Shown here: positions 17,696 to 17,923 of the stretch, piece after piece
How the letters are laid out: each line of letters opens with the position of its first letter
Numbering within the stretch: the stretch's first letter is position 1
Origin: Nitrospirota bacterium
Lineage (GTDB): Bacteria > Nitrospirota > Thermodesulfovibrionia > Thermodesulfovibrionales > UBA6898
NCBI GenBank assembly: GCA_016217675.1
Contig: JACRHC010000072.1
Location: 1,742-25,741 of the forward strand
Length of the DNA: 24,000 bases
Direction: 5' to 3'
The notes under the pieces: model-generated
Seen by the model: only the letters and a program-made list of their open reading frames with translations
Told to the model about the DNA's origin: nothing
Database searches by the model: none
Position numbers and translations under genes: made by a program

Positions 17696-17923
17696 TCATG
17701 CGATCTGCCCTTTCGCCTTGTCCGCAACACGGCGAACATCTCCGAGGCATCACCTGCCCTGGGGGTGGTTCGTCTTACAGTTGCATCCACCCCTTTTCTT
17801 CTCGCTGAGTATTCGTTCCAGGATTGAGGAGATGCCGTTGTTTTCAAGAACATCCCTGATAATGTCCTCCTCAGAGTATCCAAAACAGTAACAGATAGGA
17901 TTATTTCCGATGGATGTCTTCAT
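17696..17923 (-). CDS. small Cys-rich protein (BFD-like CxC...CxC pattern) with in-frame TGA (17752..17750) read as candidate selenocysteine next to Cys (U-C), 75 codons
   Basis: Not in the ORF track. ATG 17923..17921 forms an ATGA overlap with the thioredoxin-lipoprotein stop. The translation is [80 protein letters not shown]. The track's 74-aa ORF 17659..17883 is a different, motif-less frame of the same strand. Confidence 0.55.
17719..17738 (-). promoter_or_regulatory. SECIS-like stem-loop 3' of the in-frame TGA of the small Cys-rich ORF
   Basis: mRNA: UGA UGC CUC GGA GAU GUU CGC CGU GUU GCG GAC AAG. The stem UGUUCGC/GCGGACA is 7 bp including one G-U. The loop CGUGUU begins at nt 22 after the U of UGA, almost the same geometry as the rhodanese hairpin. 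Confidence 0.45.

What the first reader, a model, noticed from the sequence alone, without database searches (positions are those of the whole stretch)
17696..17923. Unannotated 75-codon Cys-rich ORF immediately upstream of hgcA with an in-frame TGA next to Cys and a SECIS-like hairpin
The ORF is invisible in the track because the TGA splits it into pieces of fewer than 60 aa. It begins with an ATGA overlap to the thioredoxin-lipoprotein gene. It reads PICYCFGYSEEDIIRDV...GGCNCKTNHPQGR-[TGA]-CLGDVRRVADKAKGQIA. The CxC-n33-CxC spacing recalls BFD-like [2Fe-2S] domains. The TGA would create a U-C dyad where related motifs would have CC. A 7-bp stem with loop CGUGUU starts its loop 22 nt from the UGA, versus 25 nt for the rhodanese TGA elsewhere in the window. 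Two independent in-frame TGAs each interrupt a coherent motif-bearing reading frame, each next to redox Cys, and each is followed by a hairpin at the same distance. That is the pattern expected for selenoproteins. Selenium has extreme affinity for Hg. A Sec/Cys-rich mini-protein encoded between a periplasmic thioredoxin and hgcA is therefore an attractive candidate Hg(II) or metalloid handling partner. That functional idea is pure inference.
Basis: partly seen in the sequence, partly recalled or inferred. Interest (0 to 1): 0.8.

Follow-up and report, generated by a model that had tools for sequence, protein, structure and literature searches.

The report
Misannotated small iron-sulfur selenoprotein gene
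The 75-codon reading frame is a real gene for a small selenocysteine-containing, BFD/CopZ-like iron-sulfur protein that annotation cuts short at its UGA. The family is already catalogued, and it travels with an arsenic-resistance and thioredoxin gene cluster rather than specifically with the mercury-methylation genes.

Summary
On the minus strand, 17923→17696 reads [13 protein letters not shown]…HPQGR-TGA-CLGDVRRVADKAKGQIA-stop, followed by a 7-bp hairpin.

The selenoprotein reading is strongly supported:
- All 80 homologous loci fetched from reference genomes, plus the window, carry TGA at this codon. Their true stops are a TAA/TGA/TAG mix.
- The conserved in-frame tail C[LI]xDV[RH][RQ]V[AV]D follows the TGA in every one.
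- Cys homologues have a CC dyad at this position (GRCCLGEV), as does A. fulgidus CopZ-NT.
- The hairpin is conserved, meets the published bacterial SECIS model, and constrains synonymous sites.

The family appears already listed in selenoprotein reviews as "(2Fe-2S)-binding protein (CopZ family) form 1, GxUC". NCBIfam holds sister models (CopZ_Nterm_CC and CopZ_Nterm_CU). GenBank and older RefSeq records hold only the truncated 51–57 aa product (for example DVU_2006).

The proposed link to HgcA is not supported. Only 5 of 80 loci, plus the window, have hgcA next door. In Nitrospirota the conserved unit is ArsR–ACR3–Trx lipoprotein–this gene–CcdA, with hgcAB between this gene and ccdA in a minority of loci. 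Function is inferred only: a cytoplasmic [2Fe-2S]/selenol redox or metallochaperone protein. The Sec machinery of this genome could not be checked.

The parts
17696..17923 (-). Complete coding sequence of the 75-residue selenoprotein: 74 sense codons plus Sec58, with the stop codon at 17698-17696.
   Evidence: Translation. Homologues in 80 genomes keep this frame open apart from the one TGA. With U replaced by C, the NCBIfam NF047645 score is 57.2 bits, against 41.0 bits for the truncated form.
17750..17752 (-). Sec codon UGA (codon 58).
   Evidence: TGA is present in 81 of 81 orthologous positions, while terminal stops are TAA 32, TGA 30 and TAG 19. The codon aligns with the first Cys of the CC dyad in Cys homologues P0078-P0082, in 116 of the 150 best-scoring cluster representatives of the profile search, and in 2hu9.
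17719..17738 (-). bSECIS-type hairpin: a 7-bp stem (17738-17732 paired with 17725-17719) and the 6-nt loop CGUGUU (17731-17726). It begins 11 nt after the UGA.
   Evidence: RNAalifold recovers the 6-bp core. 93.8% of cells are paired, against 31-61% for slid controls, and 4 pairs show compensatory changes. Synonymous sites in the stem are constrained. The hairpin alone folds at -8.6 kcal/mol.
17715..17748 (-). Optional lower stem (17748-17745 paired with 17718-17715) that extends the hairpin in the window sequence.
   Evidence: The 41-nt fold reaches -13.2 kcal/mol, but only 76% of cells are paired across homologues. It is therefore weakly supported.
17882..17890 (-). C12-Y-C14 motif, the first two predicted [2Fe-2S] ligands.
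   Evidence: It is invariant in all homologues aligned. It aligns to Cys75/Cys77 of 2hu9 and to the NifU central-domain region.
17777..17785 (-). C47-N-C49 motif.
   Evidence: It is conserved as CxC in the family, and one of the two Cys is occasionally lost. C49 aligns to Cys109 of 2hu9.
17699..17749 (-). Post-UGA tail, C59-LGDVRRVADKAKGQIA. It is predicted to form the C-terminal helix with the U-C dyad at its N-cap.
   Evidence: The tail is conserved as C[LI]xDV[RH][RQ]V[AV]D in 81 of 81. Codon-position periodicity continues after the TGA. The AlphaFold2 model of the Cys homologue P0079 places helix 62-74 directly after C60-C61 (pLDDT 86.5).
17920..18309 (-). Thioredoxin-fold lipoprotein gene, overlapping the selenoprotein start by ATGA. 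It is the conserved upstream neighbour.
   Evidence: Pfam Thioredoxin_2 and Thioredoxin. It sits immediately upstream in 16 of 80 loci (tblastn finds a homologue within 6 kb in 22) and also in L081 and L084.
15535..16284 (-). CcdA/DsbD-type transmembrane thiol-disulfide transporter gene. In most Nitrospirota relatives it directly follows the selenoprotein gene.
   Evidence: Pfam DsbD_TM. It lies at +197 to +231 nt in 12 loci.
16226..17613 (-). hgcA (16519-17613) and hgcB (16226-16534). They lie between the selenoprotein gene and ccdA here and in a minority of relatives.
   Evidence: NCBIfam HgcA scores 392 bits and HgcB 121 bits, both above cutoff. hgcA is adjacent in only 5 of 80 loci plus the window.
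18306..20973 (-). Upstream genes of the same cluster: ArsP-type permease (20023-20973), Thioredoxin_3/ArsE (19772-20017), ArsR (19394-19765) and ACR3 (18306-19403).
   Evidence: Pfam and NCBIfam hits. ArsR was not scanned and is identified from its sequence and from ArsR/HTH_5 homologues. The genes are tightly spaced or overlapping on one strand. No terminator-like site lies between the selenoprotein gene and hgcA. The same gene order recurs in Nitrospirota relatives.

Best explanation
The window encodes a genuine bacterial selenoprotein of 75 residues. UGA at codon 58 is decoded as selenocysteine under the direction of a hairpin that starts 11 nt downstream, the standard SelB/bSECIS mechanism.

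The protein is a stand-alone version of the [2Fe-2S]-binding half of the CopZ-N-terminal / BFD-like domain (CDD cd10141). It is the family that selenoprotein catalogues list as "(2Fe-2S)-binding protein (CopZ family) form 1, GxUC". Sec replaces the first Cys of the family's universal CC dyad, which sits at the N-cap of the C-terminal helix.

Inferred mechanism, not shown:
- The protein has no signal peptide, so it is probably cytoplasmic.
- C12, C14, one of C47/C49, and C59 probably hold a [2Fe-2S] cluster.
- Sec58 would then be a reactive selenol next to that cluster.
- This arrangement could couple one-electron Fe-S chemistry to thiol/selenol redox chemistry or to soft metal(loid) binding.
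- The protein probably serves the thioredoxin-lipoprotein/CcdA thiol relay and the ArsR-type arsenic/metal efflux cluster in which it is embedded.
- hgcAB lies inside this cluster in a few Nitrospirota. The selenoprotein is not a specific HgcAB component.
For: **Shown**
- The sequence is as described.
- In the protein database search, 74 of 79 clusters are 52-61 aa long, and every one I read ends exactly before the TGA.
- 387 loci in reference genomes encode a relative. In the best 80, plus the window, the interrupting codon is always TGA, whereas true stops are TAA 32, TGA 30 and TAG 19.
- The tail after the TGA is conserved in frame in all 81. Third-position variability continues after the TGA.
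- Adding the tail raises the NF047645 score from 41.0 to 57.2 bits and the NF045877 score from 18.1 to 29.2 bits.
- Cys homologues read GRCCLGEV. Among the 150 best-scoring cluster representatives of the profile search, 116 have CC at this site, 19 end exactly there, and 8 have W. The one W case checked is TGA read as Trp.
- 2hu9 aligns PSGR-C118-C119 to PQGR-U-C.
- The hairpin is conserved and shows compensatory changes.
- Synonymous sites in the stem are constrained: GTY 76 of 76 against 42.5 expected, CGY 71 of 71 against 22.3 expected, and NNG 72 of 76 against 20.1 expected.
- All four constraints of the published bSECIS model (PMC13188914, Fig. 2 legend) are met.
- TGA serves as an ordinary stop for the neighbouring trx, acr3, hgcA and hgcB genes, so this is not an alternative genetic code.
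- A second in-frame TGA followed by a hairpin interrupts a rhodanese domain in the same window.
- The AlphaFold2 model of a Cys homologue is confident (pLDDT 86.5). Its nearest solved folds are Bfd structures.
- Catalogue entries are in PMC9312934 and PMC13188914.
Against: - No Sec machinery (selA, selB, selC, selD) could be examined for this genome. The window has no tRNA genes and no other contig of the MAG was available.
- No Rfam family matches the hairpin.
- Single-sequence folding energy is not exceptional.
- Scores to Pfam Fer2_BFD and to both NCBIfam models are below their cutoffs.
- Foldseek matches to Bfd are weak (E about 3).
- Two natural variants carry CGA (Arg, seen in 6 contigs) or GGA (Gly, seen in 1 contig) instead of TGA, so Sec is not indispensable everywhere.
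- The cluster-ligand assignment rests on alignment and on my recollection of the 2hu9 paper, which I could not read.
- Gene context outside Nitrospirota and one Desulfobacterota group is heterogeneous, so the functional inference is soft.
- I could not compare WP_245779778.1 by sequence with this protein.
Confidence: 0.85

Rival explanations
1. The selenoprotein is a dedicated accessory of mercury methylation. Its Sec-Cys dyad would capture Hg(II) and hand it to HgcA.
For: In the window the gene lies 82 nt upstream of hgcA on the same strand, with no terminator-like site between them. The same adjacency occurs in L001, L005, L011, L014 and L040. HgcA proteins themselves usually carry a CU or CC motif (Haft & Gwadz). 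The window's HgcA has lost that motif, so supply in trans is conceivable.
Against: Only 5 of 80 related loci, plus the window, have hgcA adjacent. In 12 Nitrospirota loci the gene is followed directly by ccdA. About 50 loci in other lineages have no hgcAB within 6 kb. The five related loci that have the selenoprotein next to hgcA all keep the CC motif in HgcA, so there is no complementary pattern.
Confidence: 0.07
2. The UGA is mainly or also a true stop. The functional product would be the 57-residue CxC…CxC protein, which still has four Cys like Bfd, with read-through to the 75-residue form only when selenium is available (two products from one gene).
For: The truncated product keeps C12, C14, C47 and C49, the same spacing class as the CxC…CxxC of Bfd and NifU. 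Bacterial Sec insertion is known to compete with termination (general knowledge). Natural variants tolerate Arg or Gly at the site.
Against: The tail and the CC/UC dyad are invariably conserved. No homologue has a different stop codon, or no tail, at this position. The truncated form would lack the last helix of a confidently modelled fold.
Confidence: 0.06
3. The interruption is an artefact or a decayed gene: a sequencing error, a pseudogene, or non-Sec read-through, with the hairpin conserved only because the amino acids are conserved.
For: The source is a MAG. Single-sequence hairpin stability is ordinary. There is no Rfam hit.
Against: An identical TGA is present in 81 independent genomes across several phyla. 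Stem third-codon positions are far more constrained than codon usage predicts, whereas the third positions of non-stem codons +2, +3 and +8 vary freely. The site aligns with Cys in homologues.
Confidence: 0.02

Closest known systems
[quoted passage not shown]
   Same: The Sec motif is the same (G-R-U-C here). The domain assignment is the same, through similarity to CopZ-NT, NifU and BFD. The RefSeq product name is the same: the truncated homologues WP_118230672.1 and WP_010939290.1 are called "(2Fe-2S)-binding protein".
   Different: No difference was demonstrable. I could not retrieve WP_245779778.1 to compare sequences, so identity of the family is inferred from motif, domain and name. The catalogues give no function or gene context.
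NCBIfam NF047645 CopZ_Nterm_CC, putative iron-sulfur cluster-binding metallochaperone (138 positions)
   Same: This is the best library hit (E = 2e-15). It covers the CxC…C…CC half of the model, and the Sec aligns inside its CC dyad.
   Different: The score of 57 bits is below the 100-bit cutoff. Only profile positions 80-137 are matched, so the N-terminal (zinc-site) half is absent here. This protein has U where the model has C.
NCBIfam NF045877 CopZ_Nterm_CU, Csac_0668 family 2Fe-2S cluster-binding (seleno)protein ("form 2")
   Same: It is a related domain and is also a selenoprotein family with Sec in the dyad.
   Different: Sec is the second residue of the dyad there (C-U), not the first (U-C). 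The model is a longer 161-position protein, and the score of 29 bits is far below the 190-bit cutoff.
Archaeoglobus fulgidus CopZ N-terminal domain (PDB 2hu9; Sazinsky et al. 2007, J Biol Chem 282:25950)
   Same: Residues 72-126 align to residues 8-66 here: C75-x-C77, C109 and GR-C118-C119 correspond to C12-x-C14, C49 and GR-U58-C59. That domain binds a [2Fe-2S] cluster.
   Different: The match is weak (E = 0.07). CopZ-NT also has a zinc subdomain and is fused to an Atx1-like copper chaperone domain. This protein has neither of those, has an extra Cys (C47), and contains Sec.
Bacterioferritin-associated ferredoxin Bfd (PDB 4e6k, 6e6r) and the central [2Fe-2S] domain of NifU (Pfam PF04324)
   Same: They share the small helical fold and the CxC…(about 32 residues)…C spacing. 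Bfd structures are the top Foldseek hits (TM 0.64 normalised to target). Weak hits also appear to PF04324 and TIGR02000.
   Different: All scores are below family thresholds. Bfd and NifU use CxxC as the second ligand pair and lack the downstream CC/UC dyad and C-terminal helix. Neither is known as a selenoprotein.
CU/CC motifs of HgcA and SAO-system selenoproteins (Haft & Gwadz, bioRxiv 10.1101/2022.07.06.499078)
   Same: Both have a vicinal Cys/Sec dyad in proteins encoded near metal-handling genes, typically truncated in databases at the UGA.
   Different: The folds are unrelated. The dyad order differs (CU there, UC here). There is no demonstrated linkage to HgcAB.

Membership tests
Bacterial selenoprotein gene (Sec-UGA plus bSECIS) | An in-frame UGA conserved at the same codon in orthologues. 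| tested here: met
   TGA is present in 81 of 81. Terminal stops are a TAA/TGA/TAG mix.
Bacterial selenoprotein gene (Sec-UGA plus bSECIS) | Protein-coding conservation continues downstream of the UGA in the same frame. | tested here: met
   The tail motif is conserved in 81 of 81. Codon periodicity continues after the TGA. Adding the tail gains 16 bits to NF047645.
Bacterial selenoprotein gene (Sec-UGA plus bSECIS) | Homologues with Cys aligned to the UGA position. | tested here: met
   P0078-P0082 read GRCC or GKCC followed by L. 116 of the 150 best-scoring cluster representatives have CC. 2hu9 has C118-C119.
Bacterial selenoprotein gene (Sec-UGA plus bSECIS) | A stem-loop that meets the bSECIS model: loop of 3-9 nt, stem of 4-16 bp, G in the first two loop positions, 16-37 nt from UGA to the loop, and MFE of -7.5 kcal/mol or lower (PMC13188914, Fig. 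2). | tested here: met
   The loop is CGUGUU (6 nt, with G at position 2). The stem is 6-7 bp. There are 18 nt between the UGA and the loop. MFE is -8.6 kcal/mol for the hairpin alone. The hairpin is conserved in 81 sequences.
Bacterial selenoprotein gene (Sec-UGA plus bSECIS) | selA, selB, selC (tRNA-Sec) and selD present in the same genome. | not testable with these tools
   The window has no tRNA gene and none of the sel genes among the ORFs examined. The indirect support is a second TGA-plus-hairpin gene in the window.
Bacterial selenoprotein gene (Sec-UGA plus bSECIS) | Selenium incorporation shown experimentally. | not testable with these tools
   This needs 75Se labelling or mass spectrometry.
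"(2Fe-2S)-binding protein (CopZ family) form 1" selenoprotein (review catalogues) | The Sec motif GxUC. | tested here: met
   The sequence reads G56-R57-U58-C59. The motif is listed in PMC13188914 Table 1.
"(2Fe-2S)-binding protein (CopZ family) form 1" selenoprotein (review catalogues) | [quoted passage not shown] | tested here: inconclusive
   No CDD search tool was available. The protein is similar to CopZ-NT (2hu9), to the NF047645 and NF045877 models, and to Fer2_BFD, but below their cutoffs.
"(2Fe-2S)-binding protein (CopZ family) form 1" selenoprotein (review catalogues) | Sequence similarity to the representative WP_245779778.1. | not testable with these tools
   The accession could not be retrieved, and sequences containing U are not accepted by the look-up tool.
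NCBIfam NF047645 CopZ_Nterm_CC | A whole-protein score at or above the curated cutoff (100 bits) across the 138-position model. | tested here: not met
   The score is 57.2 bits and only positions 80-137 are covered. This protein is a stand-alone C-terminal half.
NCBIfam NF045877 Csac_0668 family (CU) | A score of at least 190 bits and a C-U dyad. | tested here: not met
   The score is 29.2 bits, and the dyad here is U-C.
Pfam PF04324 Fer2_BFD | The gathering score (26 bits). | tested here: not met
   The scores are 17.2 and 19.0 bits, and only the first half of the model is matched. Fold similarity to Bfd is weak.
HgcAB accessory protein | Consistent genomic co-occurrence with hgcAB. | tested here: not met
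   hgcA is adjacent in 5 of 80 loci plus the window. Most loci lack it.

The most novel reading that the evidence does not exclude
The short Sec form is a new type of redox centre. A selenol sits directly beside, or even ligates, a [2Fe-2S] cluster. It would act as the dedicated cytoplasmic electron or metal(loid) donor for a CcdA/periplasmic-thioredoxin relay in ArsR-controlled resistance clusters. In hgcAB-bearing Nitrospirota the same protein would also feed Hg(II) or reducing equivalents to HgcAB.
Probability: 0.1. Interest if true: 0.6.

Novelty: new member of a known kind. Interest (0 to 1): 0.3.

Why it matters
In practice, this is another case where automatic annotation truncates a selenoprotein. 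GenBank holds a 57-aa "hypothetical protein" (MBI5633843.1), and older RefSeq entries such as DVU_2006 hold 51-aa stubs.

Biologically, the family is widespread in anaerobes: 387 loci in one-genome-per-species references. Its function is unknown. Placing Sec next to an Fe-S site is unusual.

Three points from the comparative work here may go beyond the catalogues:
- Sec is almost confined to the stand-alone short architecture.
- In Nitrospirota the gene is embedded in a Trx-lipoprotein/CcdA unit inside an ars-type cluster.
- hgcAB lies inside that cluster in a minority of loci.

These points are incremental. For mercury-methylation research the useful message is negative: this gene should not be read as an hgcAB component.

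Tried and rejected
- **Rfam.** A gathering-threshold scan of the whole window and a permissive scan of 17600-17800 found no SECIS family. Only one chance lncRNA hit appeared.
- **tRNA search.** ARAGORN on the window and on 60 loci found no tRNA-Sec.
- **Structure of the window protein.** I modelled the natural Cys homologue P0079 instead.
- **Foldseek.** The PDB search gave only weak Bfd hits and did not return 2hu9.
- **Papers not held.** The 2hu9 paper (PMC2859431) and Haft & Tolstoy 2025 (PMC12013261) could not be read. The cluster-ligand identities are therefore from memory.
- **Source of the catalogue entry.** The GOS paper that the 2026 review cites for this family does not mention it under CopZ, 2Fe-2S or BFD. 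I could not trace the original prediction.
- **Literature on the model-organism homologue.** No paper mentions DVU2006.
- **Sequence look-up.** Sequences containing U are rejected and X-substituted versions are absent from the collection.
- **Alternative genetic code.** Rejected, because TGA ends the adjacent trx, acr3, hgcA and hgcB genes.
- **Alternative 74-aa frame.** Rejected.
- **Lower stem.** The extension seen in the window sequence is only 76% paired across homologues.
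Full report
**Observation.** The finding lies on the minus strand. 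Translating window 17935→17690 gives [81 protein letters not shown]. The ATG (17923-17921) overlaps the TGA stop of a thioredoxin-fold lipoprotein ORF (17920-18309) in an ATGA. The mechanical ORF list shows only the 57-aa piece. Downstream on the same strand lie:
- hgcA (16519-17613; NF040863, 392 bits),
- hgcB (16226-16534),
- a CcdA/DsbD_TM gene (15535-16284),
- an ECF-type sigma-factor-like ORF (14899-15528), called from its sequence and not scanned against any library.

Upstream lie ACR3, ArsR, a Thioredoxin_3/ArsE protein and an ArsP-type permease. The hairpin UGUUCGC-CGUGUU-GCGGACA is at 17738-17719, and its first loop base is nt 22 from the U of UGA. The description is accurate.

**Is the UGA read through?** A search of the large protein collection returned 79 clusters. 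Of these, 74 are 52-61 aa long, and every one I read ends exactly at …HPxGR. Two longer ones carry Arg or Gly at the site and then CLGDVxRVAD. Two distant ones read GRCCLGEV.

A scan of one genome per species found 387 loci that encode a relative, and I analysed the best 80:
- All 80, plus the window, have an in-frame stop at the same codon, followed by C[LI]xDV[RH][RQ][VL][AV]D.
- That stop is TGA in 81 of 81, whereas the genuine terminators are TAA 32, TGA 30 and TAG 19.
- This frame contains exactly one stop in all 81. The other same-strand frames are open in only 12 and 7.
- Column entropies keep the low-low-high codon pattern after the TGA.
- With U replaced by C, the NCBIfam NF047645 score rises from 41.0 to 57.2 bits, and the NF045877 score from 18.1 to 29.2 bits.
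- TGA ends the adjacent trx, acr3, hgcA and hgcB genes, so the organism does not use a TGA-sense genetic code.

**Sec/Cys pairing.** A profile of full-length members found 1437 cluster representatives (E ≤ 1e-3) in a 1.8-billion-protein library. The 150 best divide as follows:

| Residue(s) at the site | Architecture | Count |
|---|---|---|
| CC (NPxGxCCLGxV) | long, multi-domain | 89 |
| CC | short, stand-alone | 27 |
| ends exactly at the site | short | 18 |
| ends exactly at the site | long | 1 |
| WC | short | 7 |
| WC | long | 1 |
| RC | short | 2 |

The remaining five did not fit the motif parse. The one WC case I checked is a TGA that a gene caller translated as Trp. So U aligns with the first Cys of a family-wide CC dyad, and Sec use is almost confined to the short stand-alone architecture. 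The solved A. fulgidus CopZ N-terminal domain aligns C75-x-C77, C109 and GR-C118-C119 to C12-x-C14, C49 and GR-U58-C59 (2hu9, E = 0.07).

**The RNA element.** In an ungapped alignment of the 81 sequences (A2), RNAalifold recovers the 6-bp core of the hairpin. For the 7-bp stem:
- 93.8% of cells are paired, against 31-61% when the 3' arm is slid.
- Four pairs show double changes, for example GUCCAC/GUGGAC and GUCUAC/GUAGAU.
- No shuffle of 500 reaches the observed score.

Because the stem lies in conserved codons, I tested synonymous sites against each locus's own codon usage:

| Stem position | Observed | Expected |
|---|---|---|
| Val codon is GTY | 76 of 76 | 42.5 |
| Arg codon is CGY | 71 of 71 | 22.3 |
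| Ninth codon ends in G | 72 of 76 | 20.1 |

The sequences are phylogenetically related, so these are not exact probabilities. However, the third positions of codons +2, +3 and +8, which lie outside the stem, are near saturation.

The element satisfies every constraint of the published bSECIS model: loop of 3-9 nt, stem of 4-16 bp, G in the first two loop positions, 16-37 nt between UGA and loop, and MFE of -7.5 kcal/mol or lower (PMC13188914). The hairpin starts 11 nt after the UGA.

Caveats: single-sequence z-scores are modest, a lower stem seen in the window is only 76% paired across homologues, and Rfam has no matching family.

**What the protein is.**
- Library hits are NF047645 "putative iron-sulfur cluster-binding metallochaperone" (CopZ_Nterm_CC; only positions 80-137 of 138 matched), NF045877 "Csac_0668 family 2Fe-2S cluster-binding (seleno)protein" (CopZ_Nterm_CU), the central domain of NifU, and Pfam Fer2_BFD. 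All are below their cutoffs.
- The protein is therefore a stand-alone copy of the cluster-binding half of the CopZ-NT/BFD-like domain, without the zinc subdomain.
- An AlphaFold2 model of the natural Cys homologue P0079 is confident (pLDDT 86.5, pTM 0.74). It has a short strand at the CYC motif, three helices, and a final helix that begins right after the CC dyad.
- The nearest solved folds are P. aeruginosa Bfd structures, but the statistics are weak (TM 0.64 normalised to target, E about 3).
- No signal peptide is evident from the sequence, so the protein is probably cytoplasmic.
- Across the family, CYC and CC/UC are essentially invariant, while one Cys of the middle CxC is occasionally lost.

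My inference is that C12, C14, one of C47/C49, and C59 hold a [2Fe-2S] cluster, and that Sec58 is a reactive selenol beside it. I recall that Cys119 is the ligand in 2hu9, but I could not verify this because the paper is not held.

[quoted passage not shown] They list a "form 2" that equals the Csac_0668 CU family (PMC9312934; PMC13188914 Table 1).
- The motif here is G-R-U-C.
- Truncated homologues are named "(2Fe-2S)-binding protein" in RefSeq: WP_118230672.1, and WP_010939290.1 = DVU_2006 of N. vulgaris Hildenborough.
- The window's own product is GenBank MBI5633843.1, "hypothetical protein HZA15_10230", 57 aa, from a Nitrospirae MAG.

I conclude that the family is already catalogued and that this copy is mis-annotated. 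I could not compare it with WP_245779778.1 directly. I could not trace the original prediction either, because the paper the 2026 review cites does not mention the family under these names.

**Context and the Hg idea.** tblastn of the window's neighbours against the 80 loci gave:

| Neighbour | Loci with a homologue within 6 kb |
|---|---|
| ArsR | 31 |
| ACR3 | 26 |
| ArsP | 26 |
| Thioredoxin_3 | 26 |
| Trx lipoprotein | 22 |
| DsbD_TM | 20 |
| HgcA | 6 |

- In Nitrospirota the recurrent order is ArsP–Trx3–ArsR–ACR3–Trx lipoprotein–[this gene]–CcdA.
- ccdA follows at +197 to +231 nt in 12 loci.
- hgcAB sits between the selenoprotein gene and ccdA only in the window, L005, L011, L014 and L040. 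In L001 it follows the gene but ccdA was not detected in the stretch held. In L017 hgcAB is 5 kb away on the other side.
- A Desulfobacterota group has ArsR–ArsC–ArsP–[gene]–TauE–Trx3.
- An Anaerolineae locus has ArsR–ACR3–ArsP–[gene].
- Elsewhere the neighbours are heterogeneous, with scattered MerR, AhpD-like, FmdE, CDF and DUF364 genes.
- The Arg-variant locus L081 reads ArsR–Trx–[gene]–DsbD_TM–FmdE–ChrA–CDF–OEP, with no hgcAB.

The association of hgcAB with ars genes is itself already described (PMC7438021). The gene therefore belongs to the thiol-redox and ars-type cluster, not to hgcAB. The Hg-partner hypothesis is not supported, though it is not strictly excluded for the few hgcAB-adjacent cases.

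**Mechanism, with its status.**
- Shown by comparative sequence evidence: UGA is recoded with a bSECIS hairpin, and Sec replaces the first Cys of a conserved dyad in a BFD/CopZ-NT-like domain.
- Inferred: [2Fe-2S] binding and the ligand set; a cytoplasmic location; a role as a redox or metallochaperone partner of the Trx-lipoprotein/CcdA relay and the ArsR-type efflux genes.
- Unknown: the substrate, and whether the 57-aa termination product also functions.
- Arg (CGA, 6 contigs) and Gly (GGA, 1 contig) variants show that Sec can be lost.
- The genome's Sec machinery could not be checked. A second in-frame TGA with a hairpin, inside a rhodanese domain that matches the rhodanese part of selenoprotein TsoB across the TGA, is indirect support.

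**Verdict.** The HgcA-partner idea is not supported, and the family is already catalogued. Interest is low to moderate: it is a useful annotation correction and a tidy comparative picture of a widespread selenoprotein of unknown function.

Noticed in passing
window 4161-5675 (minus strand), TGA at 5007-5009: A second candidate selenoprotein. A signal-peptide-bearing multi-rhodanese protein is interrupted by an in-frame TGA in the active-site loop (AYCRGAS-U-GMSP), followed 14 nt later by the hairpin CUUUGCC-AGGUU-GGCAAAG. With U replaced by C, one continuous hmmscan stretch across the TGA matches the rhodanese part of NF045694, selenoprotein TsoB (71.7 bits, below cutoff).
   Followed up: partly
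window 17523-17613 (minus strand), N-terminus of hgcA: The window's HgcA starts MAELKFIKMSSEKERSAW. It lacks the roughly 30-residue Cys-rich segment (for example ACCGP) present in the six related Nitrospirota HgcA proteins examined. That segment corresponds to the CC/CU motif Haft & Gwadz report for most HgcA proteins. No in-frame TGA extension exists upstream.
   Followed up: partly
L081 4001-4264 and L084 644-883: Natural variants of the small protein carry CGA (Arg; 6 contigs from several samples) or GGA (Gly; a single 904-bp contig) in place of the Sec codon. The downstream tail is still conserved. In L081 the stem is weakened to G-U pairs.
   Followed up: yes
L085 93-365 (protein P0093) and 7 other representatives: Some metagenome gene calls show Trp at the Sec position. 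In the one I checked (P0093) the codon is TGA, evidently translated under a TGA=Trp code, and this also runs the call past the true TGA stop.
   Followed up: partly
window 14899-20973, compared with L003, L004, L008, L009, L015-L020, L022, L024: In this Nitrospirota ars-type cluster, hgcAB appears as a two-gene insert between the selenoprotein gene and ccdA. Most relatives have the same cluster without it, which is consistent with lateral acquisition of hgcAB into an ars operon.
   Followed up: partly
window 15535-16284 compared with 16226-16534 (minus strand): The longest ORF for the CcdA/DsbD_TM gene (GTG start at 16284) overlaps the end of hgcB by 59 nt. Homologues are 229-239 aa long, so the true start is probably about 10-20 codons further in.
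   Followed up: no
window 10059-11940 (minus strand) and 21034-21923 (minus strand): Two adjacent genes carry the NCBIfam "two-CW domain", and one of them is fused to a GGDEF diguanylate cyclase. napD and napB homologues lie just upstream of the ars-type cluster. I saw no connection to the finding.
   Followed up: no
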